A stretch of DNA of 58,603 bases from Euryarchaeota archaeon UBA170 (GTDB lineage Archaea > Thermoplasmatota > Poseidoniia > Poseidoniales > Thalassarchaeaceae): contig DALF01000050.1 of assembly GCA_002499345.1 (NCBI GenBank), forward strand, positions 14,923-73,525, in the 5' to 3' direction. The notes below the pieces were generated by a model. It saw nothing but the letters and a program-made list of their open reading frames with translations. It was not told the origin of the DNA and made no database searches. The translations under genes were made by a program, and so were the position numbers. Below are positions 18,169 to 58,601 of this stretch, in pieces; position 1 is the first letter of the stretch; each line of letters begins with the position of its first letter.

Positions 18169-19193
18169 TGCACAAGACTGTAAGAATGAGAGTGGGCGGG
18201 CCATTGATTAGAATGGCACCTGTTGGAATCATCGGAGTTGGCTCATACGTCCCGCCGCATGAAATGAGTAATGATGATTGGTCGGAAATCGTGGATACTA
18301 GTGACGAGTGGATTACTACCAAGACCGGTATGAAAAAAAGGAGGATTGCCGACCCCAGTACATGTACGTCTGACTTAGCCGTTGAGGCCTGCAGAGTGGC
18401 ATTAGAAAACTCTGGACTAACGGCCTCCGATATCGATTTGATAATACTGGCAACTTCTTCGCCAGATGTCCCTATGTCTTCGACGGCCGGGATAGTCCAG
18501 GATAAGCTAGGTTGCTCCGATTGTGTTGCTTTTGACATCAATGCGGTATGTGCTGGTTGGGTTCACGCACTGGATATAGGTTCTAGATTTGCAGGGACAG
18601 CAGGTTATGAAAATGTACTGGTTGTCGGATCCGAGGTATATTCGAGGATCCTGAATTGGAAAGATCGTTCGACTTGTGTACTGTTTGGGGATGGCGCGGG
18701 AGCTGTGGTACTTTCCCAAGTACCAGAGGGGAAGGGAATTATTGGATCGTGGATGATGAGCGATGGTTCTGGATCTAGTGTTATTGAGATTCCAGCAGGA
18801 GGGGTCAGAACTCCGATCCCCAGTGAGGGTTTCAAAGAGGGGATGCAATACTTTCACATGGATGGGAGGGCTGTTTGGGACTTTGCGATCGAAGCGTTTC
18901 CTCAAGCCGTGTTATCAGTTCTCGAAAGATATGGCAAAACTATAGATGAGGTTGACCTTATTCTACCTCATCAGGCTAACATAAATATCATTGAGAAGGG
19001 AATGGAAAAGCTAGGACTTCCCATGGACAGGGCGTTCACGAATCTCCATAAGTATGGAAATACAGCTGGAGCGAGTGTCCCTATTGCTATGCACGAGGCA
19101 TTCGAAGAAATGAAGATAGTAGAAGGGGATCTAGTCGTCACCGTTGCATTTGGTGGTGGCTTGGCATGGGGCGCTAATCTCATTCAGTTCTAG
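18168..19193 (+). CDS. fabH: 3-oxoacyl-ACP/CoA synthase III (FabH-like KAS III)
   Basis: GSYVPPHEMSNDDWSEIVDTSDEWITTKTGMKKRR, NAVCAGWVHAL (Cys), LPHQANINII (His), YGNTAGASVPIAM (Asn). The maximal ORF starts at 18150. ATG 18168 forms TGATG with the ALDH stop. ATG 18213 is also possible. Confidence 0.85.
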   Translation: MHKTVRMRVGGPLIRMAPVGIIGVGSYVPPHEMSNDDWSEIVDTSDEWITTKTGMKKRRIADPSTCTSDLAVEACRVALENSGLTASDIDLIILATSSPDVPMSSTAGIVQDKLGCSDCVAFDINAVCAGWVHALDIGSRFAGTAGYENVLVVGSEVYSRILNWKDRSTCVLFGDGAGAVVLSQVPEGKGIIGSWMMSDGSGSSVIEIPAGGVRTPIPSEGFKEGMQYFHMDGRAVWDFAIEAFPQAVLSVLERYGKTIDEVDLILPHQANINIIEKGMEKLGLPMDRAFTNLHKYGNTAGASVPIAMHEAFEEMKIVEGDLVVTVAFGGGLAWGANLIQF

Positions 19194-22100
19194 TTGACAG
19201 GGCCCCAAGACCCAGTGGACTGGTTGAATGAGAGGATTGATCCATCTGGATTCTGACAGTACACATTACCCGTATTGTCAACCCAAACAAGTTGCCCGTT
19301 TTCGTTCATCTTAGCGTCACTGGGAGGCTTTGGTTCGGTTCTTCCTCCATCTGAAGGGAGAGATGTAGAGCTGGGGACGGAGACATTTGAGTATATTTTG
19401 GACTCATTAGTTACCTCGCCGGAATCATTGGATTGAGAGAATAATGACTGCTCTTTTTCTCCTCTTCTCCTGACAAAGAGTAAACCTCCGAGAGAACCGA
19501 TCACTACCACAGAAATCAGTGCTACTAAGATTAGCATTGTTGTTGATTCCTCGGCTACCTGCCTATCAGGGTCGTTTGGGAATGCATCTCCATTGTCTCC
19601 TACGCCATCTAGGTCTGAGTCCAACCACTCAAATGGATTCAGGGGGAAGTCATCTACGCCATCCATGAATCCGTCATCATCAGAATCCGGATCGGTAGCA
19701 CTGGTATTTCTCGCATCTTCCTCCATATCAGATGAGCCGTCATTGTCATCATCAGAATCTGAGTTGTCCCCTACGCCATCCAAATCATTATCATTCCACT
19801 CAGTCGAATCTAGTGGGAGGGCATCTAGTAAATCAGGGAATCCATCATTGTCATCGTCATCATCCTCTTCAGAATCCTTACAGCCGTCTGAATCGTTGTC
19901 GGTATCCACTGTGCTGGTCCACCCTACTAGACCCAGTGTACACCCGTCGACGATATCGTTAATTCCATCACCGTCATCATCCAAATCCACTTCATCATGG
20001 AGTCTATCTCCATCTGAGTCTAGAAGGCAATCATCGACCGATGTAGAGGATTCTTGCAGGGTAATCATATCCTCTGGACAAGATTCTGTAGCTATACTTC
20101 GTGCCGATGTTACAAACTGATCGAATGGGGCGGGGGCCTGTTGGGCCTGCCCCTTTTCGGATACGAAGAATCCTGGGTCTGCATCTATGCATGTAGATTG
20201 GCCCGAGGATGGCTGGTAAGTTCCCTGCAGACATTCTTCTTGTGACACTGATGCTTCAGACGAAGTGAAGAACCCTGGGTTCGTATCTAGGCAAGTGGTT
20301 TGTCCAGGGGATGGCTGATAAGTTCCAGACAAACATGGATTCTGCTCATTGGAGCCTTCAGAGAGTACGTAGTGACCTGGTTCGGATGAAATACAGGAAA
20401 TCTGCCTAGTCTGATTCTGATAGCTCCCCGGTGAACACGGAGTCTGCCCGGAAGAACCGGGAGAGGAGACATAGTGTCCCTCATCTGATTCTAGGCAATC
20501 TGACTGGCTTGTTGCTGATTCGTCGGGATTGTAAGTTCCCACGGGACATGGATTTTGAGAAGTGGACATTTCGGAGTCTACATAGAAGCCCGGATCAGCA
20601 TTGATACAATTTTGCTGGCCCATTGAAGGTTGATACTCTCCTGCCTGACATTCTTGTTGGCCATCTTCTCCTGATAATTCGACAAAATGCCCAGGATCTG
20701 CCTGCAAGCATGATACTTGCCCGGCATAAGGCTGATACTCGCCCGGAGAACATAGATTCTGGTAAGACGCTCCGAGAATTGCTGAGTAGTTGCCCGGATC
20801 AGCTTCGAGACAAGCCGCGGAGCTATTTGCCCTGGATACTGGATTATAGGTCCCAAGGGAGCAGGGAATCTGGGTAGAAGATGCGTTGCTATCTGTGTAG
20901 TACCCGGGACTGGCCTCTAGACATTCAGAGAGTCCGACCTGATTGGCCCAATAACCAGGAGGGCAGGGAGAAGCGAATATGGCCCCCCCTGAGCCGACAA
21001 AGTAGCCTGGAGGAGCCGGAGTGCAAGAAACCTGTCCAGACATAGATTGGTAGAACCCAGGAGTGCAGGGGATCTGGTAAGATGAGGCATTGGCGGGGAC
21101 CGCATGCCCCGGGTCCGCATCAAGGCAAGATTGGGAACTATTGGCCGCGCCCGCTGGATTGTATGTGCCAGCGAGGCAGGGAGTCTGTGTGGTGGACCCT
21201 GCCTGTTCTACGTAGTGTCCAGGATCTGCGTCTATACAATCTGTTGCCGCGAAAGAAGGCTGGAAAGATCCGGGCTGGCAAGGTGTTTGCGAGGAAGACG
21301 CATTCGATGGGACATGGTTTCCAGGGGTCGCCAGCAGGCACAGTGTCTGATTCGAAGACGGCTGATAGAAACCGGGATCACAGGCTATTTGTGAGGTGCT
21401 TGCAGTCCCAGGCACGACATACCCCGGAGATGAAGATAGGCAGGATTGCTGAGCAGACAGTGGCTGATAATATCCCGGATCGCAGGGGATTTGGGATGTC
21501 GAGCTATAGTTAGGGACGTAATATCCGGAAGAGGCATCAATACACGAGGTGGAGCCATTAGAAGGCTGATACTCCCCGGGTGAGCAGGCGGCCTGACTGA
21601 CGGACCCGGATGAGAATACATAGAATCCAGGATCTGCTACCAGACAGCTAATTTGGGCAAATGAGGGCTGATATTTCCCAGGGGAACATTGAGTCTGTGA
21701 AGTAGCTCCTGGATTGGCGACAAAATTACCCGGTAAAGCAGGAGTCTGGGATGTGGCGCCGGATTGAGATACATAGTATCCTTGTTGAGCGCTTAAACAC
21801 GACGATTGTCCTGTTAGAGGTTGATAATTGCCAGGAGTGCATAGCTCCTCAGATGTCGCGCCGACACTAGAGACATATCTGCCAGTAGAAGCAGAATCGC
21901 ATGAACCGCTACCAGTTTTTGCCTGATACGTTCCTAGCTGACACTGGAAGAATCCGACTTGAATCTCTGCGTCTATTGACTCTGATTGATTACCTATAGT
22001 GGAGTCGTCGATGATTGACTTCAGAGTAAGTGTAAATGTATAATCCCCGGAGCTTGAATTATTGGGAGTAACTGAAATCAGTAATATCGAAGAACTATTG

Positions 22101-24418
22101 AAGGGCGTTCCAATCGTACTTACGCTTGCTACATCCCCTCCTAGTGTCGAGTTATTTGACGTAGAAATAAAGGACATGGCCAACGAAGAATTGTAGTAGT
22201 ACAAGCTAACACTAAAGTCCCCATTGAGATTTGAATTGGTGAGATTGACTGAAACAGTAGTATCTCTTGGGACGAATATAGAGAATAAATCACCGGAGTC
22301 ATTGGACCATGAATAGTTCCCAATTTCCCCGTCATAAGTAGCACTTCTAGACTGAAGTGGAGTGGGATGTGAATCATCCGCATCCCCATATTGATTGTTC
22401 GTATAATTTCCCACTGGAGAGGGAGTACAAGATGACTGTGCGAGATCATTCTGGTAGAACCCTGGATCGCAATGTTGCTGAACAGAAGATGATTCTTCAT
22501 CGACGAAATACCCGCTCGATGCCTCATAGCACAGAGATTGCCCCTCCTCAGGTTGATAATTTCCTGTTGTGCAACTTTCATGGAAAAGGGAGCCTTGCAA
22601 AGAGAAATGGCCAGTGGATGAGTTCTGACAGGATAATCGTCCCCATTGGCCGTCTGGACAGCTTACCCATCTGGCTGGATTATCTGGAAAATCATCCATT
22701 GATGAATTGAACCCATCACCATCGGTATCGTCACCGATATCCAAATCCAGAACGTTACGGGTTCCATCTCCATCGAGGTCCTGCTCAGAGTATCCAATTG
22801 ATTCTCCAAGAGTGGAGTTATTGAAGTCCATCAGATATGGTACGAGGATATCATTTGAGGTTCCATCAAATTCTCCAGATTGACCGCCCCAACAGAACAG
22901 AGAGTAGCTCTGATTTATCGCACATGTGGATTCGATACCAGTTACTAATGCTATGGCCGGAGATGGCATAAGGACGTACGAGGGAACGTTTCCATCCGTT
23001 CCTGAGCAATTGCTGGAACTGGAGCTACAAGTTCCATCTCCCCACTGCCCATGGGTATTAACTCCCCAGCAATTGATCGACCCATTGTCCATCAATGCAC
23101 ATGTGTGCCAGTTAGTACCATCAATATCGGATGCTGTCCTGCCAGTTGGTAACTGAATATCGGTTGATGAACCTGTTACAGAGCCACCCTGAGTTGAGAC
23201 TGTGTAGGCCTTGCCCCAACAACTGATCGACCCATTATCAAAAATAGCACATACGCTATATCCGGGAGTTGCCAATGAGGAAGCCCTAAGGCCCGTTGAG
23301 TGATTGGCCAAGACTGGTGAGTTCCTACTAGTGGTGGTGCCATCACCTAGATTTCCAAAACCATTGAATCCCCAGCACTTGATTTCACCGGTATCTAGAA
23401 TTGCACAGGTGAAATCATTTCCCGCTGAAACAGAAATCGCTGTTCTGTTTACCCCTAGGTCAACTGGAACGGGGGAGTTTCTGTTAACGTTTGAGCTATC
23501 CCCTAGTTGGCCGTGATTATTCCTTCCCCAGCAATTTAGAGATGCATCGTCCAGAATTGCGCAATTGTGATAGTTTCCGTTTGAAATAGCAACTGGCACA
23601 CGAGTTCCGAAGTCCACCGTCCCATTGCTTAGGGAATTAGAGCCGACTCCGAGTTGTCCGTAGGTATTTGACCCACTGCATCTAAGTGTCCTATTGTACA
23701 GTATTGCACAGTCCCCTGCAATTGAAATCACTTCATCGTTGATGACTTCTGAACCTCCAGTACTGTTGAAACTAACTGTGCTCCCATTGGATAGGACTAG
23801 TGTAGGAGATCCAGTATCTAAGTCCAGAACTGAGTGGCTGAAGACTGATCCCCTATCTGTGCCTGGTTGATTGAAACCAAGATTGTTTATCTGAGCTGGC
23901 GAGGGGGATGATGACGCTTCGCTAAGTGTCCATGAGTCTGTCCCCCATGAGTCTCCAGAAGTGCCCCCATTTCCATTAACTAGGTTTACGGCCAGATAGA
24001 ATACCACATCTCCAGAACCCGTTATGGGGGCTGTCCAGTCAACCGACCATGCCCTAGAATTGGAGTTTGAATGAGTGACCTCGCCTGAGGATAACCGAGC
24101 ATTCGGACCTGGATTAGAGAATACTCCCAGATTAGAATCCAGATTGAATCCACCGCTGGTACCACTCGGTCCACCAGAGGCGCTTACTGAAAGAGAATAT
24201 GTAATTCCCGGAGTATATCCTGATGAAGGAGTTCCTGAAAGTGCAGGGGTGACTGTTGGAGAGGTTGAGGAATGGCAAAATCCAGCTCCACATCCATCGG
24301 TAGAACCGGTTCTCCCGGAGCTGTTGGCAAATGCTGTTTCTGGCACAGCCATAAGCAAAAGCATCAGAAAGGTTCCCACAATAATTACTCTAGTTTTCAT
24401 TCCACTCTCTCCTGCCAT
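19190..24418 (-). CDS. giant (1742 aa) type-I surface protein: N-terminal C-x4-CH module, RCC1-like propeller, PPC-like domain, about 20 Cys-repeat units, TSP3-like acidic Ca-binding repeats, TM, cytoplasmic tail
   Basis: Signal peptide VIIVGTFLMLLLMAVPETAFA. RCC1-like blades (YGQLGVGS, CWGRNNHGQLGDSS, CWGFNGFGNLGDGT, CWGVNTHGQWGDGT). Repeats C.PG.YQP...Q.SC...PG.YV. DxDxDG runs (DSDGDRLHDEVDLDDDGDGINDIVD). TM MLILVALISVVVIGSLGGLLFV. Confidence 0.85.
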   Translation of the reverse strand: MAGESGMKTRVIIVGTFLMLLLMAVPETAFANSSGRTGSTDGCGAGFCHSSTSPTVTPALSGTPSSGYTPGITYSLSVSASGGPSGTSGGFNLDSNLGVFSNPGPNARLSSGEVTHSNSNSRAWSVDWTAPITGSGDVVFYLAVNLVNGNGGTSGDSWGTDSWTLSEASSSPSPAQINNLGFNQPGTDRGSVFSHSVLDLDTGSPTLVLSNGSTVSFNSTGGSEVINDEVISIAGDCAILYNRTLRCSGSNTYGQLGVGSNSLSNGTVDFGTRVPVAISNGNYHNCAILDDASLNCWGRNNHGQLGDSSNVNRNSPVPVDLGVNRTAISVSAGNDFTCAILDTGEIKCWGFNGFGNLGDGTTTSRNSPVLANHSTGLRASSLATPGYSVCAIFDNGSISCWGKAYTVSTQGGSVTGSSTDIQLPTGRTASDIDGTNWHTCALMDNGSINCWGVNTHGQWGDGTCSSSSSNCSGTDGNVPSYVLMPSPAIALVTGIESTCAINQSYSLFCWGGQSGEFDGTSNDILVPYLMDFNNSTLGESIGYSEQDLDGDGTRNVLDLDIGDDTDGDGFNSSMDDFPDNPARWVSCPDGQWGRLSCQNSSTGHFSLQGSLFHESCTTGNYQPEEGQSLCYEASSGYFVDEESSSVQQHCDPGFYQNDLAQSSCTPSPVGNYTNNQYGDADDSHPTPLQSRSATYDGEIGNYSWSNDSGDLFSIFVPRDTTVSVNLTNSNLNGDFSVSLYYYNSSLAMSFISTSNNSTLGGDVASVSTIGTPFNSSSILLISVTPNNSSSGDYTFTLTLKSIIDDSTIGNQSESIDAEIQVGFFQCQLGTYQAKTGSGSCDSASTGRYVSSVGATSEELCTPGNYQPLTGQSSCLSAQQGYYVSQSGATSQTPALPGNFVANPGATSQTQCSPGKYQPSFAQISCLVADPGFYVFSSGSVSQAACSPGEYQPSNGSTSCIDASSGYYVPNYSSTSQIPCDPGYYQPLSAQQSCLSSSPGYVVPGTASTSQIACDPGFYQPSSNQTLCLLATPGNHVPSNASSSQTPCQPGSFQPSFAATDCIDADPGHYVEQAGSTTQTPCLAGTYNPAGAANSSQSCLDADPGHAVPANASSYQIPCTPGFYQSMSGQVSCTPAPPGYFVGSGGAIFASPCPPGYWANQVGLSECLEASPGYYTDSNASSTQIPCSLGTYNPVSRANSSAACLEADPGNYSAILGASYQNLCSPGEYQPYAGQVSCLQADPGHFVELSGEDGQQECQAGEYQPSMGQQNCINADPGFYVDSEMSTSQNPCPVGTYNPDESATSQSDCLESDEGHYVSSPGSSGQTPCSPGSYQNQTRQISCISSEPGHYVLSEGSNEQNPCLSGTYQPSPGQTTCLDTNPGFFTSSEASVSQEECLQGTYQPSSGQSTCIDADPGFFVSEKGQAQQAPAPFDQFVTSARSIATESCPEDMITLQESSTSVDDCLLDSDGDRLHDEVDLDDDGDGINDIVDGCTLGLVGWTSTVDTDNDSDGCKDSEEDDDDDNDGFPDLLDALPLDSTEWNDNDLDGVGDNSDSDDDNDGSSDMEEDARNTSATDPDSDDDGFMDGVDDFPLNPFEWLDSDLDGVGDNGDAFPNDPDRQVAEESTTMLILVALISVVVIGSLGGLLFVRRRGEKEQSLFSQSNDSGEVTNESKIYSNVSVPSSTSLPSDGGRTEPKPPSDAKMNENGQLVWVDNTGNVYCQNPDGSILSFNQSTGSWGPVN
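20144..21946 (-). repeat. in-frame tandem array of about 18 units of roughly 32-33 codons (Cys-repeat, GCC2/GCC3-like) inside the giant surface-protein gene
   Basis: Protein residues about 825-1425 repeat the pattern C-x-(P/A/L/V)-G-x-(Y/F)-(Q/N)-P-x4-5-(S/D)-C-x3-(D/S)-PG-x-(Y/F/H)-V-x6-9-Q-x-x. Examples: CSPGEYQPSNGSTSCIDASSGYYV, CDPGFYQPSSNQTLCLLATPGNHV, CLQGTYQPSSGQSTCIDADPGFFV. The units have diverged at nucleotide level. Confidence 0.8.
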
Positions 24419-24536: not shown

Positions 24537-26330
24537 TTACTGCATCGTTACGAATACCTCAGAGGCCAGCGGAGGCATTGTAACTCCAGCTTCTGAGAAT
24601 GCCTCTTCCACAGATACAAAGCTTCCTCGGTTCTTATTCGCTCTTCTGGCTCTATTGCTGATGATTTTCCAAGATGCCTTGTCGCCTATCCCCGGTAGTG
24701 CCTGAAGTTGGCTCTTGGTGGCGAAATTGATATCGAGATCACACTCAATTCCTGAGATACTCCTCATCCCATGTCCAGTAACTAAGATATTCGAGCCTGT
24801 TTCGAGAGGGATTGCATATGGGACCCCCACTAGTATGGGGTAGGCCCCTATCTGCCTTCCAAATGTAATTCCGGGCTCTCCATGTTTGGAAGAGTCTCTG
24901 TATTTTTCATCTGATACGTGCTCAGGGAGTCTTATTCTACCACCTCTAGACTCCCACCACAAGTCCTTCAATTTGGTCCCGATGGGAAATATCTCTTCGA
25001 GCATTGGGCGGTCGATTTCTTCTCTGACCGTGGTTTTGAATTTCCTGAATTCATTTTCAGGGATATCTTGAAATCCTTTTCCCTCGACTTGTCGGATATT
25101 TATTCTTCTCAGCCATAGTCTCTCCGATTTCAATTCGTTAAGAAGATCGAGATTCATTGCATACGTTCTCTCAGTCTCGCCGTTTAGTCCTGCTATAAAG
25201 TTCAGACCGGGAAGTAGTCTTGGAAGCCCTCTAGGCCCCCTTTCCCTTCCGTATTCATTTATGTGCCTAATGGCTGTCTTCAGCTGATTTGCGTCACAAT
25301 TTAGCCAATTTGTCTCATGTACCATCGGATCAGCTGATTCCAAGCCGAAAGAAAGTACTGCTCCATCAGATAGATTCTCTACCAGAGATTTAGTTATCTC
25401 CGTGGACGGCTCAATATTTTGTGCAACTATCGACGGATTGGCATTGTCCACATGCAGAATTTGTAGACCCTCATTGCTTCTTGCTCCTTGCAGTACCTTG
25501 GAGATTGGCTCTGGATCAGGAATGGGATATTCCAGTTCCTGAACCCCTTCCGCCCTGTAGGTATAGATATCCGTAGCTCCCCCTATTCTGACGTTGACGA
25601 CACCAGATTCTACTGCAGTATTGATTTCCTTGATAATATCATCTTCTTTTCTCCACAGAGGAAGGCCTTTCTTGGGCTCAATACAGAATTTACAACCTCT
25701 CTTGAATCGGACGCAACCCTGATACAGCTCCACCTCATAAGTAAGAGGACCATTGGACCCATCTGGAGATAATAAATCGGGGTGCCTCACTACCGCCTTT
25801 GATGAGGCCCCTCTAAGTGCCCATCTTGACCATTCATCCGGACTCCTTTTCTTATGGTTCATGTTTCCCGTAGAAAGGAAATGATTGAGGGTTGCGTCTA
25901 CATCCTTCAAGCTACAAAAAAGGTTTGTCCTAGGGGAGACCCATCCCGATTGCCTCCAGTGTCGAATTGCCCAACCGCCGCATATAACTGGGATTCTATT
26001 TGGAATAGAGGATAGGAACGAGTCCGTCTCTCGTATACTGATTGGAGTCCCCCTGATGTACTTCCCTGGAACCACTGCTCCAGCTAGAAGGATCGCACCG
26101 TCCAGTTCACTCATTCGCTCCCTTACAGATTTGCGCCCACCATAGGTCGAGAGTTCTGATTTGAATGACCTTCTCCATTGATCGACGGTCATGTAGGTGT
26201 ATTGTATTCCCCTCTCCTCTAGAACACCGCAGATGTATCTGATGTGGAATCCAACATAATTTGGAACACCAAAAGCCGCGGGTTCATCCTCATACCCATC
26301 AAGGACGAGCCATCCCTCGAGCTTTTCCAT
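24537..26330 (-). CDS. radical SAM-like protein with C-terminal helix-hairpin-helix
   Basis: Cys cluster ELYQGCVRFKRGCKFCIEP (C-x6-C-x2-C, nt 25683-25715). TIM-barrel-like middle region. C-terminal LQALPGIGDKASWKII is an HhH motif. Confidence 0.55.
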   Translation of the reverse strand: MEKLEGWLVLDGYEDEPAAFGVPNYVGFHIRYICGVLEERGIQYTYMTVDQWRRSFKSELSTYGGRKSVRERMSELDGAILLAGAVVPGKYIRGTPISIRETDSFLSSIPNRIPVICGGWAIRHWRQSGWVSPRTNLFCSLKDVDATLNHFLSTGNMNHKKRSPDEWSRWALRGASSKAVVRHPDLLSPDGSNGPLTYEVELYQGCVRFKRGCKFCIEPKKGLPLWRKEDDIIKEINTAVESGVVNVRIGGATDIYTYRAEGVQELEYPIPDPEPISKVLQGARSNEGLQILHVDNANPSIVAQNIEPSTEITKSLVENLSDGAVLSFGLESADPMVHETNWLNCDANQLKTAIRHINEYGRERGPRGLPRLLPGLNFIAGLNGETERTYAMNLDLLNELKSERLWLRRINIRQVEGKGFQDIPENEFRKFKTTVREEIDRPMLEEIFPIGTKLKDLWWESRGGRIRLPEHVSDEKYRDSSKHGEPGITFGRQIGAYPILVGVPYAIPLETGSNILVTGHGMRSISGIECDLDINFATKSQLQALPGIGDKASWKIISNRARRANKNRGSFVSVEEAFSEAGVTMPPLASEVFVTMQ

Positions 26331-26356
26331 GAGCTAGCGGCCCGGGTAGTCAGCCT

Positions 26357-27634
26357 TCACCGCTTCGACTGTTTCCTTCGTCCGCCTCTATCTCTACTAG
26401 AGCCACTAGGGGATGACTCCTCGACTACTATCTTCCGACCTTTAATTTCTGAACCATTCATGGCCTTGATAGCTGCCTTTGCATCATCTTTAGAGGGGAA
26501 AGTGACAAATGCGAATCCCTTAGACTTTCCAGAGTCTCTATCCTTGGCGATGTGTATGGAGTCGATTTTTCCATGCTCCGAGAATGCTTTGGATAGTTCT
26601 TCCTCCGATATTTCGTATGGGAGCCTACCAACAAATAGCTTGGATCCCATTTTCTCCTCGAGCTTCCCCCTCATGGCAGATATTGTCTCCCTCTCTTTGG
26701 ATAGCTCTTCTTTAGTGGCATTTCCACCCTTGACCTTGTCCATACAGTCTCTACATCTTATTGGCTTGCCGGGAGTTGGTTTGAATGGCACCTTTGTTTT
26801 AACCCCGCACATCGTACAAACTGCTTCGTGCATGTCCCTTCTAGGCCTACTCTGGCCCCCTCTTCCACCACCGCGGCTAGAAGACCTCATGGATGCCACC
26901 CTAGGCGGGATATCGTGATTTGCACCTCTTCGGAAGTCAGCTAGAGGAGAAAGGTATGGCCGGGCTCCATCATGACCTAGTTTCGCTTCTGCCTCGGGAG
27001 ACCATCTTTCTCCGGATCTGTTCAGTTTGTGTAGACCGAAGCCAGTTTCGTGGCCATGGCCAAAACCATCTGAGAGAACTCGATAGGCTGTATAGTCACA
27101 TCTTGAGCATTCTACATTGAAATCGATTTTCTTATCCGATACGTCCAGCATTACTCCACAGGCGGGGCAAGATGCAGATAATACTCCTAAGGATATGTCG
27201 CCCTTTGTTGAGGCTTTAAGGATAGGATCATCCTTGACTATTCTAGCTCTGACAATATCTCGCATCCTCATAGCATCACCAGGGGACGGAATGAATCTGT
27301 CAACGACTTCAGAGACATGTATATCAGCAAATAATTGAAGGGCCGGGAGGCTCCTGTGCCCTCCTTGCTTGCTCTCGACGTGTAGGATTCTAATCTCGGC
27401 GACGTTCTCGTTCAGTCTCGTTACCTGTCCGATCACTACATCATCAACAGAAGGAGAGTTTATGGGTGGCCTAGATGACTCTACGGAGATATTTCCATCC
27501 TTCTCTACAAGAGTTCCGGGGAGCGTGGCTATGCATCTTCCGTTCTTCTCAAAAATACCTTCTCCAACAGAGGATTCTGATGGAATAGTTACTGTGGAAC
27601 CGGGTGTAACTTGATCACCAACTACGGCAGACAT
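26357..27634 (-). CDS. csl4: exosome cap subunit Csl4 fused to RGG box, CxxC-x17-CxxC zinc knuckle and RRM domain
   Basis: The Csl4-like N-domain, S1 domain and Zn ribbon are supported by VIGQVTRLNENVAEIRILHVE ... CPACG ... CSRCDY. These are followed by SRGGGRGGQSRPRR, then CTMCGVKTKVPFKPTPGKPIRCRDC. A canonical RRM follows (RNP2 LFVGRL, RNP1 KGFAFVTF). The ORF-track start 27664 is TTG; ATG at 27634. Confidence 0.8.
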   Translation of the reverse strand: MSAVVGDQVTPGSTVTIPSESSVGEGIFEKNGRCIATLPGTLVEKDGNISVESSRPPINSPSVDDVVIGQVTRLNENVAEIRILHVESKQGGHRSLPALQLFADIHVSEVVDRFIPSPGDAMRMRDIVRARIVKDDPILKASTKGDISLGVLSASCPACGVMLDVSDKKIDFNVECSRCDYTAYRVLSDGFGHGHETGFGLHKLNRSGERWSPEAEAKLGHDGARPYLSPLADFRRGANHDIPPRVASMRSSSRGGGRGGQSRPRRDMHEAVCTMCGVKTKVPFKPTPGKPIRCRDCMDKVKGGNATKEELSKERETISAMRGKLEEKMGSKLFVGRLPYEISEEELSKAFSEHGKIDSIHIAKDRDSGKSKGFAFVTFPSKDDAKAAIKAMNGSEIKGRKIVVEESSPSGSSRDRGGRRKQSKR

Positions 27635-27677
27635 TGACCGGGCGACCAGCCGTTCCCCTATCAACGGTACGGAGGAA

Positions 27678-28292
27678 CTAGGGGGGAACTAGTCTCCAGA
27701 ATCCTGCCCTGGTGACTCCTCTGGTCATCTTATGATGAGAATATGAAGCAGGAAGCGGAAAGTCTGCTTCGCCATACATCTCCACGTCCCAATTCATATC
27801 TTCGAATCTTTTTTCTAGATGTTTGGCGTTGGCACTGTGCATTATGTGAGTGATGGTTTTTGAGGCTAAAATGTGTTCAATAAATTCAGAATCAGCTCCC
27901 TCTTTCTGCCTGCCCCAAGGGGGGTTGGAAATGATTAGGTCGTATCCTTCTAGATGGAAATTGTCCTTCCCTATTCGCTTATTGGAGACTTCATATTTGC
28001 CGCTCATTAGCATGCCTTCTGCATTGGCATTAGCCAGATCGCATAATTTTTGATCCGCCTCTACTAATTTTACAAAACTGGCCCCCATCATAACGGCACC
28101 AATTCCTAATATTCCGTTTCCAGCTCCCAAATCGGCGACTCTGCATCCGGGGGATAAATCTCCGAAGGCCTGGATATCAAAAAGCCATCTCGATGCTAAA
28201 TCCCCCGGTGTGACATACTGCTCCATGGATGCATCTAAGTCTTCTTTTACACCTAGTTTGGACAAGGACATCGCGAGTTTTCGTAGCCTCAT
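27678..28292 (-). CDS. SAM-dependent methyltransferase with NPPW motif (COG2263 / METTL5-like putative RNA methylase)
   Basis: VADLGAGNGILGIGAVMMGA (motif I), DLIISNPPWG (motif IV), N-terminal LEQY-like MEQYVTP. The ORF-track start 28313 is TTG; ATG at 28292. Confidence 0.7.
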   Translation of the reverse strand: MRLRKLAMSLSKLGVKEDLDASMEQYVTPGDLASRWLFDIQAFGDLSPGCRVADLGAGNGILGIGAVMMGASFVKLVEADQKLCDLANANAEGMLMSGKYEVSNKRIGKDNFHLEGYDLIISNPPWGRQKEGADSEFIEHILASKTITHIMHSANAKHLEKRFEDMNWDVEMYGEADFPLPASYSHHKMTRGVTRAGFWRLVPP

Positions 28293-28323
28293 CAAATGAG
28301 GGAGAGCCCTCAAATAGTTATGC

Positions 28324-32204: not shown

Positions 32205-33251
32205 TTACTTCCTCCCTGAGGGCACTGCTAGCCATACCCCTTGTATGAAACCAATGCGTATTGACTTCGATTCGAGGTCATCATCGTATGGTAACGCTAC
32301 AGTGACTACCTTGTAGTCTGTAGGGTCAAGGATCTCCACTGCCGAACTATCCCTGTTCAATATGTCAACAACGAACTGTTCGGTCTTGGGGCAGATTACT
32401 ACAGAACCTTCCATATCCCTCCAGGTAGCGCCCGATCTCTCGAATCTGTCCATTTTCTTTAGAATCGGCCCGTCCTTCTGCCAACTTTCGACTATCCAAA
32501 GATTCTTTCTGAATCTAATGACATCTCCGAGGCCATATGCAGGTTTTCTGTAGCTTAGTGTCAGCCTTGAGACCTCGATTCCGTCGTTGGCACCAACTAC
32601 CGTGGAGGTTTCTTTGACGGTACCTCCGAACTTCTTGACTAAATTTCTGGACCATCTCCTTGCCATGGCCTTGGACCCTAATTTCAGATCCCATCCACCG
32701 GTGACCTGTCCCTCCTCTGAGATGAAGAACATAGGGTCCGCCTCCATCTCAGACAACATCTCATCAAGAGTCTCTCGTAATGACTTGAGCTCTGTTTCGG
32801 ACAGTCTCCTGCCAGCAGATCTAAGTTGCATTACCGCCTCAAAATATGAGCCTGCCTTGCGTGTGCATGTTGGACAGACTGCATTACTGGTCTGTAGAAG
32901 TACCTCATGAGAATCTGAGAATTCATATCCTTCAATAATACCAGAGATATCCACATGTAATCTACTGGTTCTATCGTCTATTTCCTCGACTGCGAAATCT
33001 ACTGAAACTTGCTTTGCCCTGTCCTCGACACCGAGGCTCCCCCTAATCCTCAAGTCTGCTAAATCATTAGAGTCGATTACTGACCATCGTCCACGAATTT
33101 CATGAAAACCACATTTGGAGCATCTATCTTGTTGGATTCTCTCAGGCATGACAGATAGCCTAGTCCTATCTCTCAAGCAAGATTCGCACATTCTATCTGT
33201 GGTCAAGGGCGGCGATGCGCCACAGACTATGCAGAATTCGCCGTCAGACAT
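32205..33251 (-). CDS. nmd3: NMD3-family ribosomal large-subunit export/biogenesis factor homologue
   Basis: FCIVCG ... CESC ... CSKCG ... CPTCTRKAGSYFEAVMQLR is the NMD3 N-terminal Cys pattern. The maximal ORF starts with TTG at 33299; ATGs at 33275 and 33251. Confidence 0.7.
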   Translation of the reverse strand: MSDGEFCIVCGASPPLTTDRMCESCLRDRTRLSVMPERIQQDRCSKCGFHEIRGRWSVIDSNDLADLRIRGSLGVEDRAKQVSVDFAVEEIDDRTSRLHVDISGIIEGYEFSDSHEVLLQTSNAVCPTCTRKAGSYFEAVMQLRSAGRRLSETELKSLRETLDEMLSEMEADPMFFISEEGQVTGGWDLKLGSKAMARRWSRNLVKKFGGTVKETSTVVGANDGIEVSRLTLSYRKPAYGLGDVIRFRKNLWIVESWQKDGPILKKMDRFERSGATWRDMEGSVVICPKTEQFVVDILNRDSSAVEILDPTDYKVVTVALPYDDDLESKSIRIGFIQGVWLAVPSGRK

Positions 33252-33323
33252 GCCTCTCCCATCAAATGCGCCCATACTCCCAGTTAGAAGGGTTCCCAAT
33301 GACTGAATGCTTGTAATTAGTTT

Positions 33324-36756: not shown

Positions 36757-39700
36757 ATGGACAGGTTGGGATTATACAGGGCCGACATTTGGCTCTCTAA
36801 GAGAGCCATGGGAAAGAGAGCATCCCCAGTGAATCCAATCATTGTAGCCTTGATGGTTCTGATGCTTGACGTTTCCCTAGGAGTGAGTGGTTCTGAATGG
36901 GAAATTAATAATTCTGATGCACAAATAGAAAATGTAGATTCACATGCAATCGCAGATATTCCCCCCCTCATGTGCGAGTCAGGCGAGTGCCCCCTCAAAG
37001 ACCGGAGCCCTCATCTTCCGCCGAATGGAGTGGATTGGCCAGTTCAAGAACCCGGTTGGTGGTTTAATTTCTGGAATGATAAAGATACCAATGGGATGGA
37101 CGATAGGTTGCAATGGATAATTTCTGGAGAACGTGAGTCTGTTTCCACCAGTGCGATTATGGGGGATGATGGCAGGATGACTGTGGCGATTTTCGTTTGC
37201 TACTCTTGGCACCCAGGAGATGATGATATCTCTGATTTGAAGGATGTTCTATCCAAGTATGGGTGGGAGGAGTATGGTACTTACTTCAGATCGGTAGACA
37301 TTCTTGACACTTTGATTGTCGAGCATGTTCCAGTGAGTGCATTGATTGAAATCTTGATGCTTGATGGAGTTGTACTGGTTGAACAGCAGGATGTTCTGGT
37401 CCCATACCTCAATACCGCGACCAAGGGATCTAAAGTCAGGACCTCAGATGTTTTCAGCGAGACTATGATGGACTATGGTTACGATGGCACAGGAGTAGTT
37501 ATCGCCATTGCAGATACTGGTGTTGACAATGAGCATTTCTCACTTGATGACTTCTCAGACCAAAATTCTGACAATGGGGCGGAGCCCGATGAATTACCAG
37601 ATCCTAAGTGGGTAGCCGGATGTGATTCGACCTCTTGGAACCAGCAAGATTGTGATGATGGCGGTGATGATCCTGATGATGGAGACGGGCATGGCACGCA
37701 CGTTGCGGGCATAGCTCTCGGAACCGGTGGCGATGATAGGGAGAATCAGGGATATGCCCCCGGTGCGTATCTTGTTGATATCAAGGTCATGACGGACGCT
37801 GGGGCGTCCAACTCCGGATATACTGTGGCAGGCATTAACTGGGCGGTGCAGAATGCAGACACTGATTGGGGCAACAATGATTCCAGTAGAGGCATAGATA
37901 TTCTATCAATGTCATTCGGTAGTGGATCAAGCCCTGCTGGAGAGGATCCTGGAGATAACGGAACCAGTCAAGATTCTCTAGCAGTTAATGCGGCATCTGA
38001 AGCGGGCATCGTTTGTGTGGCCGCGATTGGAAATGACGGTTATCGAAGGGTAACCTCTGTGGGGGCGGCAGACTCCGCCATAACCGTAGGTGCGATTGAT
38101 GACAAAGCCAGTATAGAAAGGGGGGACGATTCTATCGCATCTTACTCTAACTCTGGACCCAGGGAAGACGATGGGGATGACAATCAGTGGGAGGAGCTGA
38201 AACCAGATGTTGTTGGTCCGGGCTCTAATATTATGTCTGCACAGCATGCCGCATCTAGCTCACAGTTGCCCGGTTCTGCCAAACCTCTAGCCAGTGACAA
38301 TTATGTCCAAAAATCAGGAACTAGCATGTCTACTCCGGCAGTAGCCGGATTCATAGCAGCGATGCTTCAGATGGACGAGGATTTAACCCCTCAAGAGGTA
38401 AAAGACATACTCAGGAACAATTCGGAGACAAGAGGGGGCTCGTCAGCCCCCGATATTTCTGAGAGGTGGAACGATCAATATGGATTTGGGATAATTGATG
38501 GAGAAATGGTCATGCAGGCCATTTTAGGAGATACCGGCGGAGGAGGTGGTGACGGAAATGGCACTGGTCCGCCCCCCACGGGAACAGAGGAATGGGTGGT
38601 AATAGAAACTCCCGAGGAAGATGCTTGGCTTGTAGAGGGAGAGACCTACAGTGTCAGGGGATACATAGATGAGGATACTGAGACTAATGGAACAATTGAA
38701 GAGGTAAATGTAAGCATTTCATACAGGTACAAGCCTGATGAAGGGCCGCGGCAGACTGAGGTTTTAGTTGATTGGCACATAGTTCAGGGAACCATGAATT
38801 GGTCTACTCCTTTCTCCATTCCGGAATTCACAGAAGACGAAATAGATGTTGAGGAGATAATAATCAGGGCAAAGGCCAGAAATGAATTCAATGTCTGGAG
38901 TGAGATGGAGCAAAGCGAGCATCCTGTTGGACTACTTGAGGTTACATTGGGAGGCCCTAGTGGACAAAGTCCTGTATCTGGGAATACAAATATTTTTGGA
39001 GGCTGGGAGTCGGTCAATGGGGCAGATATTCAATGGAGATTAGGTACTGAAAGCTGGGAAACATCACAGCAGTTTGGAGGGACGGGGAGTGACTCGGGAG
39101 ATTGGTCTGTAAACTGGGACACGACATCAGTAAATGATGGATTTTATAGAATCTCAGTAAGGGTAGTGAGCGGAGATGGTATTTTCTCAGATGAAGTTAG
39201 GAGAACTGTAGAGGTAGACAATGATCCTCCTGCTCCTGATTTGATATTCCGAAGCGGAATTAGTGTAAGCGAATACGGATTACCTATATCTGAGACATTC
39301 ATCAATACATTTCTAGAAGTTAGCTGTGAGGTTAGGAATGATGGCGATTTAGATGCTTCTGAGGTCACCATATATCTAAAGGAAAATGGTGCAAGGAAGG
39401 ATGAGCTTACAATTCCCAGTATTGGCAGTGGCGATATTGTAGAGGTCATACTTTATTGGAATCCATTGACTTTGGGAGATAGGACTCTATCTATTTCATT
39501 GGACCCTTCTAACGAAATCGAGGAGATAGATGAAGAAGATAACGAGCAGTCGGTTGAGTTTCCTGTATTGCAGCGCCCACAGGGTGTCGATCTTGCATTC
39601 AGAGATGGAGCAGTTAGAACTGAACCCCCCGTTCCCAGACCTAATGAGCAGTTCCTAATAACTGCCAGAGTTGATAATCTTGGATCCAGTGATGCGACAA

Positions 39701-50422: not shown

Positions 50423-50480
50423 CGGTGTTAAAATACGTCTTAGAACCGATTCATTCTAGTTACAACACGGAGTGTTGAGT

Positions 50481-56543: not shown

Positions 56544-58601
<2,058 letters not shown>

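What the first reader, a model, noticed from the sequence alone, without database searches (positions are those of the whole stretch)
26357..27634. Exosome cap protein Csl4 fused to an RGG box, a CxxC-x17-CxxC knuckle and a canonical RRM
Seen:
- Residues about 11-195 have Csl4 architecture: N-domain, S1, and a Zn ribbon (CPACG ... CSRCDY).
- A linker follows with SRGGGRGGQSRPRR.
- Next comes CTMCGVKTKVPFKPTPGKPIRCRDC, with exactly 17 residues between the CxxC pairs (nt 26744-26818).
- An RRM follows with RNP2 LFVGRL and RNP1 KGFAFVTF (nt 26417-26641), then a basic RGG-like tail.

Established: archaeal Csl4 is about 180-200 aa and ends at the Zn ribbon. RRM domains are abundant in eukaryotes, present in some bacteria and, to my knowledge, uncommon in archaea. 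A CxxC-x17-CxxC domain family exists (I recall TIGR04272).

Inference: the extra RNA-binding modules would give the exosome cap an additional substrate-recruitment arm, functionally reminiscent of eukaryotic exosome cofactors. Alternatively, this Csl4-like protein works outside an exosome.
Basis: partly seen in the sequence, partly recalled or inferred. Interest (0 to 1): 0.65.

Follow-up and report, generated by a model that had tools for sequence, protein, structure and literature searches.

The report
Exosome cap protein with fused RNA-binding arm
In an abundant group of marine archaea, the Csl4 cap subunit of the RNA-degrading exosome carries a built-in zinc knuckle and RRM RNA-binding arm; this layout is real and conserved, has not been described in the papers I could search, and its function is still only inferred.

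Summary
ORF 26357-27634 (-) encodes a 425-aa protein. Residues 8-191 pass NCBI's Csl4 equivalog model. Residues 266-301 are a CxxC-x17-CxxC zinc knuckle and residues 331-406 a canonical RRM, with RGG-rich linkers.

It is not a merged gene pair:
- More than 120 protein clusters (56-90% identical) keep the full length.
- Contigs from four independent seawater studies cover the gene without indels.
- Metatranscriptome contigs span the junction.
- dN/dS is about 0.04 in both halves.

The gene sits directly downstream of a METTL5-like methyltransferase, the position canonical csl4 holds in other archaea. It is therefore the Csl4 ortholog of Thalassarchaeaceae (Marine Group IIb).

- The "linker" contains a roughly 60-aa extension that is among the best conserved parts of the protein.
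- Sister lineages (Poseidoniaceae, other Thermoplasmatota) carry Csl4 + the same extension + two RRMs, or + two knuckles, at the same locus.

Most likely function (inferred): an exosome cap subunit with flexible RNA-capture arms fused in cis. I could not verify Rrp41/Rrp42/Rrp4 in these genomes with the capped tools.

GenBank and IMG already auto-name it Csl4 or RRM. I rate it a new variant of a known kind, interest about 0.5.

The parts
26357..27634 (-). Whole gene: 425-aa Csl4 fusion protein. The stop codon is 26357-26359.
   Evidence: ORF list. Full-length homologues at 56-95% identity. Contigs from four independent studies cover it with no gaps.
27470..27634 (-). Csl4 N-terminal domain (residues about 1-55), with the invariant V-T-P-G motif.
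   Evidence: NCBIfam Csl4 covers 8-191. Weak ECR1_N hit at 9-42. AF2 pLDDT above 90 and Foldseek match to 2ba1_A. P11 and G12 are invariant even against canonical Csl4.
27185..27469 (-). S1/OB domain of Csl4 (residues about 56-150). Boundaries are approximate.
   Evidence: NCBIfam Csl4, PDB 2ba1_A alignment, weak EXOSC1 hit at 61-93, AF2 beta-barrel strands with pLDDT 86-97.
27080..27184 (-). Csl4 zinc-ribbon domain (residues about 151-185; C156, C159, C176, C179).
   Evidence: The four Cys are invariant in family alignment A1; in A3, with canonical Csl4, C156 and C176 are invariant and C159 and C179 nearly so. Canonical Csl4 proteins end a few residues after this domain.
26900..27079 (-). Family-specific conserved extension (residues about 186-245: ...LNRSGERWSPEAEAKLGHDGARPYLSPLADFRRG...). 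It is absent from canonical Csl4 and shared by all fused architectures.
   Evidence: Mean pairwise identity 0.76 within the MGIIb family, higher than the S1 domain. Alignable in the 2xRRM and 2-knuckle relatives. AF2 pLDDT is 84-95 for 186-220 and below 55 for 221-265. No Pfam or NCBIfam hit.
26840..26899 (-). Variable Arg/Gly-rich linker (residues 246-265). The RGG box SRGGGRGGQSRPRR is residues 253-266.
   Evidence: Read directly from the sequence. Low conservation (0.46) and low pLDDT.
26732..26839 (-). CxxC-x17-CxxC zinc knuckle (residues 266-301; Cys 273, 276, 294, 297).
   Evidence: TIGR04272 50.4 bits and PF23477 49 bits. It is the most conserved segment (0.81 pairwise). AF2 pLDDT 88-96.
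26645..26731 (-). Charged helical spacer (residues 302-330).
   Evidence: AF2 helices 295-302 and 308-329, pLDDT 83-91. Moderate conservation of 0.55.
26417..26644 (-). Canonical RRM (residues 331-406; RNP2 LFVGRL, RNP1 KGFAFVTF).
   Evidence: PF00076 86.6 bits. Foldseek TM 0.90 and 46% identity to the CIRBP RRM 5tbx_A. F334, G373, F374 and F376 are invariant.
26360..26416 (-). Basic Arg/Lys/Gly-rich C-terminal tail (residues 407-425).
   Evidence: Read directly from the sequence. Basic tails are present in all family members. Predicted disordered.
27678..28313 (-). Upstream neighbour and probable operon partner: a METTL5-like (COG2263-type) SAM methyltransferase with an NPPW motif. The real start is probably the ATG 21 nt inside this ORF.
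   Evidence: PF05175 MTS. PDB 1wy7 PH1948 E=1.5e-20 and human METTL5 6h2u E=9.7e-19. The same gene precedes fused and canonical csl4. An RNA-library contig spans 27578-27773.
24537..26330 (-). Downstream neighbour: a 597-aa radical-SAM protein with a C-terminal helix-hairpin-helix. Function unknown.
   Evidence: PF04055 and PF12836. No PDB hit, and no NCBIfam family reached its curated cut-off (only weak sub-threshold MiaB/RimO- and ComEA-like hits). It is conserved directly downstream of the fusion in MGIIb loci, and in shorter form in L009.

Best explanation
This gene is the Csl4 ortholog, the S1/Zn-ribbon cap subunit of the archaeal RNA exosome, in a Thalassarchaeaceae (Marine Group IIb, Poseidoniales) archaeon.

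In this lineage Csl4 has been extended at its C-terminus by about 240 residues:
- a conserved family-specific extension, the first part of which is predicted with high confidence (its contacts with the Csl4 body could not be inspected);
- a flexible Arg/Gly-rich tether;
- a CxxC-x17-CxxC zinc knuckle;
- a helical spacer;
- a canonical RRM;
- a basic tail.

Shown here: the architecture, the orthology by locus, the conservation and the transcription.

Inferred: the protein still caps the Rrp41/Rrp42 ring. Up to three copies can sit on one ring, so each exosome would carry up to three flexible single-stranded-RNA-binding arms. These would capture or retain substrates and feed their 3' ends to the S1 pore. 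That is the job done in trans by DnaG bound to Csl4 in Sulfolobus, and by RRM and zinc-knuckle adaptors (NEXT, TRAMP) in eukaryotes.

Sister lineages solve the same task with two RRMs or two knuckles on the same Csl4 + extension scaffold.
For: - Csl4 identity: NF034126 scores 99.7 bits, above the 90-bit cut-off. PDB 2ba1_A gives E=1.5e-16 over nearly its full length. The AF2 model has pLDDT 86 and its best Foldseek hits are archaeal and eukaryotic Csl4 chains in exosome structures. The N-terminal PG motif and the Zn-ribbon cysteines are invariant or nearly so, even against canonical Csl4.
- Orthology by synteny: a METTL5-like methyltransferase lies immediately upstream in the window, in MGIIb relatives, in 2xRRM relatives and in canonical archaea, where the order is MTase-Csl4-RpoL.
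- Real fusion: more than 120 full-length clusters. Gap-free contigs from four studies. RNA-library contigs cover 26375-26957 and 26768-27217. dN/dS is 0.029 for the core and 0.045 for the C-terminal half.
- RNA-binding modules: RRM 86.6 bits with intact RNP1 and RNP2, knuckle 50.4 bits.
- Convergent or related solutions: Csl4 + extension + 2 RRMs, or + 2 knuckles. All extension-bearing forms fall in one clade in a tree of the Csl4 core.
Against: - The exosome ring genes (rrp41, rrp42, rrp4) were not found in the 58-kb window or in the flanks of ten related loci, and my capped collection scans could not reach Poseidoniales. Co-occurrence therefore rests on indirect literature: Rrp41 is in 46 phylogenetic clusters (308 of 364 species) in PMC7414124, and the exosome is known to be missing only in Halobacteria, Methanomicrobiales and Methanococci in PMC7144898.
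- RNA binding by the knuckle is unproven. The family is only shown to bind zinc (PMC12704099).
- Residues 221-265 are conserved but modelled with low confidence, so their role is unknown.
- There is no biochemical or genetic data, and the organisms are uncultured.
Confidence: 0.65

Rival explanations
1. The protein works outside an exosome. The Csl4-like N/S1/Zn-ribbon body and the knuckle and RRM together form a free multi-domain RNA chaperone or regulator, for example a cold-shock-like or rRNA-maturation factor acting with the neighbouring METTL5-like methyltransferase and the radical-SAM enzyme.
For: No ring subunit could be shown in these genomes. The conserved gene triad MTase, Csl4 fusion, radical SAM + HhH suggests an RNA-modification context. 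RRM + Gly/Arg-tail proteins act alone in bacteria and eukaryotes; the closest RRM structure is CIRBP.
Against: The MTase-Csl4 adjacency is ancestral. Canonical exosome-bearing archaea share it, so it does not mark a new function. The Csl4 body passes the equivalog threshold and keeps the N-terminal domain motif shared with exosome-bound Csl4. The gene occupies the only csl4 position seen. The literature finds csl4 and rrp41 distributed together (PMC7144898).
Confidence: 0.2
2. The protein is an exosome cap subunit, but the C-terminal modules do not select substrates. They tether or concentrate the complex: on ribosomes or pre-rRNA, at the membrane (as proposed for DnaG-exosome in Sulfolobus), or in RGG-driven condensates.
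For: There are two RGG/basic low-complexity stretches and a long flexible tether. The relative P0121 has an RGG tail of more than 100 aa and no RRM. The neighbour is an rRNA methyltransferase homologue.
Against: The best-conserved added parts are the folded knuckle and the extension, not the RGG stretches, which vary in length and sequence. RRMs with intact RNP1 and RNP2 are classic single-stranded-RNA binders. Nothing here tests localisation.
Confidence: 0.12
3. The fusion is an assembly or annotation artefact: two adjacent genes, csl4 and an RRM/knuckle gene, joined by a sequencing error near nt 27050.
For: None found. Short 113-133-aa C-terminal fragments exist in databases, but they start at internal Met codons and the longest contigs on record for them are mostly short (532-1,561 nt; 12.6 kb for P0362).
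Against: More than 120 clusters from NCBI, JGI, ENA, Tara and Logan keep one ORF of 417-446 aa. Contigs from four independent studies show 0 gaps over 26300-27700. RNA-library contigs cross the junction. The junction region itself (residues 186-245) is among the most conserved parts. dN/dS is about 0.03-0.05 on both sides.
Confidence: 0.01

Closest known systems
Canonical archaeal Csl4 (A. fulgidus AF0206, PDB 2BA1/3M7N; NCBIfam NF034126)
   Same: The same three-domain body (N-terminal domain, S1, four-Cys zinc ribbon), about 30% identity, TM 0.75. The same genomic position downstream of the METTL5-like methyltransferase.
   Different: Canonical proteins are 180-197 aa and end just after the zinc ribbon. 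This one adds about 240 residues: extension, RGG, knuckle, helix, RRM and basic tail.
Csl4-2xRRM and Csl4-2xknuckle proteins of Poseidoniaceae and other marine Thermoplasmatota (P0123, P0124, P0126, P0128, P0132, P0134, P0137; P0121)
   Same: The same Csl4 clade (33-36% identity to the window over the full-length alignment A3; 37-45% over the matched stretches), the same post-ribbon extension, and the same MTase-upstream locus. L008 (P0132) and L009 (P0137) also have a gene immediately downstream; in L009 it hits Radical_SAM, in L008 it is cut by the contig end and has no Pfam entry on record.
   Different: The C-terminal module is RRM-RRM (or one RRM, or knuckle-knuckle + long RGG) instead of knuckle-RRM. 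Most end in a conserved peptide RExxAxREEG that the window protein lacks. The window RRM resembles their RRM2: 50% against 36-39% identity for RRM1 in the two closest relatives, P0126 and P0123 (the preference is not uniform across the others).
Sulfolobus exosome accessory DnaG bound through Csl4
   Same: An extra RNA-binding component attached at Csl4 that increases affinity for A-rich RNA (Hou 2013 as cited; PMC7667871). This is the functional analogy I propose.
   Different: DnaG is a separate protein with unrelated domains. Here the binding modules are covalently fused. Whether DnaG also binds in these organisms is unknown. DnaG is reported as universal in archaea, in a data set that includes MGII (PMC3914693).
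Eukaryotic exosome adaptors NEXT (RBM7 RRM + ZCCHC8 knuckle + MTR4) and TRAMP (Air1/2 knuckles)
   Same: An RRM and/or zinc knuckles deliver RNAs to the exosome (established knowledge; review PMC5322736 listed).
   Different: They act in trans, through the MTR4 helicase. Their knuckles are of the CCHC type, not CxxC-x17-CxxC. No homology beyond the generic RRM fold was shown here.
CxxC-x17-CxxC domain proteins (TIGR04272 / PF23477), e.g. Methanosarcina mazei small proteins A00184 and A01980
   Same: The same 37-residue knuckle. Zinc binding was shown by ICP-MS for the M. mazei proteins (PMC12704099).
   Different: Those are stand-alone, and the ten multi-knuckle proteins scanned here are tandem-repeat proteins with no other supported Pfam domain. 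Here a single knuckle is embedded between Csl4 and an RRM.
Glycine/arginine-rich single-RRM proteins (human CIRBP, cyanobacterial Rbp type NF058537)
   Same: RRM with 46% identity and TM 0.90 to CIRBP. It scores 84 bits on the Rbp model. It is followed by a Gly/Arg tail.
   Different: The score is below the Rbp equivalog cut-off of 100 bits. Here the RRM is a C-terminal module of a 425-aa exosome subunit.

Membership tests
Archaeal exosome cap subunit Csl4 (NF034126 / arCOG00676) | Sequence scores above the curated equivalog cut-off | tested here: met
   99.7 bits against a cut-off of 90, residues 8-191 on profile positions 2-178 of 180.
Archaeal exosome cap subunit Csl4 (NF034126 / arCOG00676) | Three-domain fold: N-terminal domain, S1 barrel, four-Cys zinc ribbon | tested here: met
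   AF2 pLDDT 84-97 over residues 1-220. Foldseek best hit 2ba1_A with TM 0.75, then eukaryotic Csl4 chains. C156, C159, C176 and C179 are conserved.
Archaeal exosome cap subunit Csl4 (NF034126 / arCOG00676) | Orthologous genomic position next to the COG2263/METTL5-like methyltransferase | tested here: met
   The MTase lies directly upstream in the window and in L001-L006, L008 and L009, and about 0.9 kb upstream in L010. The same holds for canonical Csl4 in L091, L093 and L094.
Archaeal exosome cap subunit Csl4 (NF034126 / arCOG00676) | Protein of about 180-200 aa that ends after the zinc ribbon | tested here: not met
   425 aa, with about 240 extra C-terminal residues. It is therefore an architectural variant.
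Archaeal exosome cap subunit Csl4 (NF034126 / arCOG00676) | Co-occurrence and physical assembly with the Rrp41/Rrp42 ring | tested here: inconclusive
   No Rrp41 in the window or in L001-L010. The genome and metagenome scans returned only the 80 hits most like the A. fulgidus query, none from Poseidoniales. Assembly is not testable in silico here.
RRM (PF00076) | HMM above the gathering score, with RNP1 and RNP2 aromatic residues | tested here: met
   86.6 bits against 20.7. RNP2 is LFVGRL and RNP1 is KGFAFVTF. F334, F374 and F376 are invariant.
RRM (PF00076) | Beta-alpha-beta-beta-alpha-beta fold | tested here: met
   DSSP gives E331-336, H344-352, E359-364, E371-379, H382-392, E403-406 with pLDDT 94-97. 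TM is 0.90-0.92 to solved RRMs.
RRM (PF00076) | Binds single-stranded RNA | not testable with these tools
   Needs EMSA, anisotropy or CLIP.
CxxC-x17-CxxC domain (TIGR04272 / PF23477) | HMM above cut-off, with exactly 17 residues between the two CxxC pairs | tested here: met
   50.4 bits against 36 and 49 bits against 27. The pattern is C273-x2-C276-x17-C294-x2-C297.
CxxC-x17-CxxC domain (TIGR04272 / PF23477) | Coordinates zinc | not testable with these tools
   Shown for M. mazei family members only (PMC12704099).
Eukaryotic exosome adaptor complexes (NEXT / TRAMP) | CCHC-type knuckle and RRM subunits acting with the MTR4 helicase | tested here: not met
   The knuckle is CxxC-x17-CxxC, not CCHC. 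The modules are fused to Csl4 and no helicase is involved in the locus. This is an analogy only.

The most novel reading that the evidence does not exclude
A whole clade of abundant marine Thermoplasmatota (MGIIb, MGIIa and related lineages) has replaced the canonical Csl4 with versions that carry a new conserved docking extension plus interchangeable RRM and zinc-knuckle arms. Their exosome would then have built-in substrate adaptors, a cis-encoded counterpart of DnaG in Sulfolobus and of NEXT/TRAMP in eukaryotes. Swapping of the C-terminal modules would have retuned RNA-decay specificity between lineages.
Probability: 0.55. Interest if true: 0.65.

Novelty: new variant of a known kind. Interest (0 to 1): 0.5.

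Why it matters
How the archaeal exosome chooses its substrates is poorly understood. Apart from Rrp4, Csl4 and DnaG, few specificity factors are known.

A Csl4 with a covalently attached RRM and zinc knuckle is conserved across some of the most abundant planktonic archaea. It comes in natural variants: knuckle-RRM, RRM-RRM and knuckle-knuckle. This offers a simple, recombinantly tractable system to test how accessory RNA-binding domains tune exosome activity.

It also documents canonical RRMs, which to my knowledge are rarely reported in archaea, in a core RNA-decay subunit. And it shows that adaptor-like solutions comparable to eukaryotic exosome cofactors arose within archaea.

The roughly 60-aa conserved extension has no family assignment and is a candidate new interaction module.

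Tried and rejected
1. Search for the exosome ring.
- I verified my A. fulgidus Rrp41 query against PDB 2ba0_F.
- I aligned it with three other solved Rrp41 sequences (A2).
- I scanned viral contigs and found nothing.
- I scanned genome contigs and metagenome contigs. Both keep only the 80 hits most like the query out of the first 600 pattern matches. They returned Archaeoglobi, Methanosarcinales and unnamed metagenome contigs, and nothing from Poseidoniales.
- tblastn of Rrp41 against the window and L001-L010 found nothing.
- I judged a further 13-CPU-hour protein search not worthwhile. Its top-120 list would again be filled by closer lineages.

2. First AF2 run. With 21 close homologues it gave pLDDT 58 and an unreliable S1 domain. 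It was superseded by the 38-sequence run, pLDDT 86.

3. Literature. Ten searches combined Csl4, RRM, Poseidoniales, Marine Group II and CxxC-x17-CxxC. None found a paper that describes the fusion. The Dombrowski 2020 supplement held as text does not give per-lineage exosome tables.

4. Split-gene suspicion. The 197-204-aa "members" of the P0001 cluster turned out to be the neighbouring methyltransferase. The 113-133-aa members are C-terminal fragments.

5. RRM origin (bacterial or eukaryotic). Not resolved. The prokaryotic Rbp model scores 84 bits and eukaryotic subfamily models up to 73 bits. The PDB is dominated by eukaryotes. A proper phylogeny was not possible, because ortholog hits would saturate the capped list.

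6. The plus-strand ORF 26244-26918, antisense to the gene, is a by-product with no support.
Full report
**What is in the sequence.** The minus-strand ORF 26357..27634 encodes 425 aa from its ATG. An in-frame TTG 30 nt upstream is not used by homologues.

- Residues 8-191 match NCBI's Csl4 equivalog NF034126 at 99.7 bits, above the 90-bit cut-off. They align to almost the whole A. fulgidus Csl4 chain 2ba1_A with E=1.5e-16.
- Residues 266-301 match the CxxC-x17-CxxC domain: TIGR04272 at 50.4 bits (cut-off 36) and PF23477 at 49 bits (cut-off 27).
- Residues 333-402 match RRM_1 at 86.6 bits (cut-off 20.7).
- A first AF2 model from 21 close homologues was poor, with pLDDT 58.
- A second model from 38 sequences, including distant relatives and canonical Csl4, reached pLDDT 86. 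Its best PDB matches are Csl4 in the archaeal exosome (2ba1_A, TM 0.75) and Csl4 chains of yeast and human exosomes. For the C-terminal domain the best matches are solved RRMs (TM 0.90 and 46% identity to CIRBP).

**It is a real single gene.**

- A protein search returned more than 120 clusters at 56-90% identity. All are 388-479 aa (nearly all 417-446), all carry RRM + knuckle, and they come from NCBI, JGI, ENA, Tara and Logan.
- A member 95% identical to the window protein occurs on 170 contigs of up to 563 kb.
- Logan contigs from four independent seawater-metagenome studies cover 26300-27700 with no insertion or deletion.
- Metatranscriptome contigs at 99% identity or more cover 26375-26957 and 26768-27217, crossing the Csl4/extension junction. 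One covers 27578-27773, crossing into the upstream gene.
- Against the 90%-identical ortholog, dN/dS is 0.029 for the Csl4 core and 0.045 for residues 186-425. dS is saturated, so these ratios are rough.
- Short database entries that looked like split genes are the neighbouring methyltransferase or C-terminal fragments that start at internal Met codons.

**It is the Csl4 ortholog, not a side copy.**

- The upstream gene (27678-28313) is a METTL5-type methyltransferase: PH1948 E=1.5e-20, human METTL5 E=9.7e-19.
- The same methyltransferase sits directly upstream of the fusion in all MGIIb loci examined and in the distant 2xRRM relatives.
- It also sits upstream of ordinary 181-194-aa Csl4 in other archaea, where the order is MTase-Csl4-RpoL.
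- Downstream, a 597-aa radical-SAM + HhH protein of unknown function is conserved with the fusion.
- GenBank names place the window type in Candidatus Thalassarchaeaceae (MGIIb).

- Residues about 186-245, called a linker, are one of the two best conserved stretches of the protein. Mean pairwise identity is 0.76 there and 0.81 for the knuckle, against 0.72 for S1 and 0.61 for the RRM.
- Canonical Csl4 proteins stop just before this segment.
- AF2 models residues 186-220 confidently (pLDDT 84-95). Residues 221-265, although conserved up to about 245, are modelled with low confidence. That pattern is expected for a peptide that folds only on a partner.
- An exhaustive search of 1.84 billion cluster representatives with residues 1-310 found only distant long relatives beyond the MGIIb representative.
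- Those relatives carry the same Csl4 + extension followed by two RRMs (P0123, P0124, P0126, P0128, P0132, P0134, P0137), one RRM (P0133), or two knuckles plus a long RGG tail (P0121).
- They are labelled Poseidoniales, Poseidoniaceae or Candidatus Thermoplasmatota. IMG calls some of them [quoted passage not shown] or "nucleolin".
- In a neighbour-joining tree of the Csl4 core alone, all extension-bearing forms make one clade apart from canonical Csl4. The tree is midpoint rooted and has no bootstrap.
- The window RRM resembles RRM2 of the two closest two-RRM forms (P0126, P0123) more than their RRM1: 50% against 36-39% identity. The preference is not uniform across the other relatives.
- The simplest history is one origin of the extension in an ancestor of these marine Thermoplasmatota, followed by shuffling of the C-terminal RNA-binding modules.

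**How it most likely works.**

- Shown: the architecture, the orthology, the conservation and the transcription.
- Inferred: the protein still caps the Rrp41/Rrp42 ring through its N-terminal domain, whose PG motif is invariant even against canonical Csl4.
- Inferred: the tethered knuckle and RRM, flanked by RGG and basic segments, act as flexible single-stranded-RNA-binding arms that capture substrates for the S1 pore.
- This mirrors Sulfolobus, where DnaG binds the exosome through Csl4 and raises affinity for A-rich RNA (Hou 2013 as cited in PMC3914693; PMC7667871; supplement of PMC7414124).
- It also mirrors, by analogy only, the eukaryotic RRM and zinc-knuckle adaptors NEXT and TRAMP.
- The knuckle family is so far shown only to bind zinc (PMC12704099). 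In ten relatives scanned it occurs as tandem-repeat proteins with no other supported domain (Arg/Gly spacers seen in P0131).

**The main gap.**

- I could not show that these genomes encode Rrp41, Rrp42 or Rrp4. None lies in the window or in ten related flanks.
- Both capped collection scans returned only the hits most like the Archaeoglobus query.
- Indirect support comes from the literature. Rrp41 is found in 308 of 364 archaeal species, spread over 46 phylogenetic clusters (PMC7414124 supplement). The exosome is reported missing only from Halobacteria, Methanomicrobiales and Methanococci (PMC7144898). DnaG is reported as universal in archaea, in a data set that includes MGII (PMC3914693).
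- An exosome-independent role therefore stays a live rival, at about 0.2.

**Novelty and verdict.**

- Ten full-text searches found no paper that describes a Csl4-RRM or Csl4-knuckle fusion.
- Public annotation pipelines already label these proteins Csl4, CxxC-x17-CxxC domain protein or RRM protein.
- The components are all known. The combination, its clade-wide conservation in abundant marine archaea, the modular variants and the unassigned conserved extension are new as far as I can tell.
- I rate it a new variant of a known kind, with interest 0.5.

Noticed in passing
window 24537-26330 (-): A 597-aa radical-SAM protein with a C-terminal helix-hairpin-helix. It has no solved relative, and no NCBIfam family reaches its curated cut-off. 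It always lies directly downstream of the Csl4 fusion in MGII loci and may be an uncharacterised RNA- or DNA-modifying enzyme.
   Followed up: partly
window 27678-28313 (-): A METTL5-type (PH1948/Ta1320-like) methyltransferase with an NPPW motif, probably co-transcribed with csl4. An RNA-library contig spans the gene boundary. The MTase-Csl4 pairing is conserved from canonical archaea to these fusions.
   Followed up: partly
window 19190-24418 (-): A 1742-aa secreted or anchored giant protein with an RCC1-repeat propeller, many ephrin-receptor-like Cys repeats, Asp-rich calcium-type repeats and a C-terminal transmembrane helix. A giant gene of 1,703-1,737 aa with no Pfam entry on record holds the same position in L001-L005.
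   Followed up: no
P0121-P0137 (L008-L010 and relatives): The 2xRRM and 2-knuckle Csl4 relatives end in a short conserved C-terminal peptide, R-E-x-x-A-x-R-E-E-G, separated from the last domain by a basic linker. The window type lacks it. It may be a docking motif.
   Followed up: no
P0174 (Logan contig, 295 aa); P0256 and P0269 (252-254 aa): Other Csl4 proteins carry N-terminal extensions. In P0174 this is a basic, Pro/Arg/Lys-rich low-complexity stretch of about 110 aa, which suggests that RNA-binding appendages on Csl4 arose more than once.
   Followed up: no
cluster of P0001: The 90%-identity cluster of the Csl4 fusion also lists 197-204-aa sequences that are the neighbouring methyltransferase. 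This is a clustering oddity in the collection, not evidence for split genes.
   Followed up: yes
window 26533 / 27316, run X28: One RNA-library contig joins 26533 to 27316 on opposite strands. This is most likely a library or assembly chimera. It was seen in one run only.
   Followed up: no
window 56550-58601 (+): A DNA gyrase B gene runs to the end of the window. Raymann et al. 2014 (PMC3914693) report that MGII gyrase looks like an independent transfer from bacteria.
   Followed up: no
L006 13159-15449: In an MGII relative, the block PAC2, a Nop10-like 49-aa ORF, eIF2-alpha and L44e lies just downstream of the radical-SAM gene. No S27e gene is called there. This fits the reported absence of Rps27e from MGII and MGIII (PMC7414124 supplement).
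   Followed up: partly
window 32205-33299 (-), 36757-41583 (+), 50472-54584 (+): By position, 32205-33299 corresponds to the NMD3-family gene (PF04981) called in the related loci; it had no NCBIfam match and was not scanned against Pfam here. 36757-41583 encodes a 1608-aa protein matching in size and position the S8 peptidase with CARDB domains called in L002/L003 (not scanned here). 50472-54584 encodes a 1370-aa PKD-repeat protein (scanned). Large surface proteins make up a sizeable share of this window.
   Followed up: no
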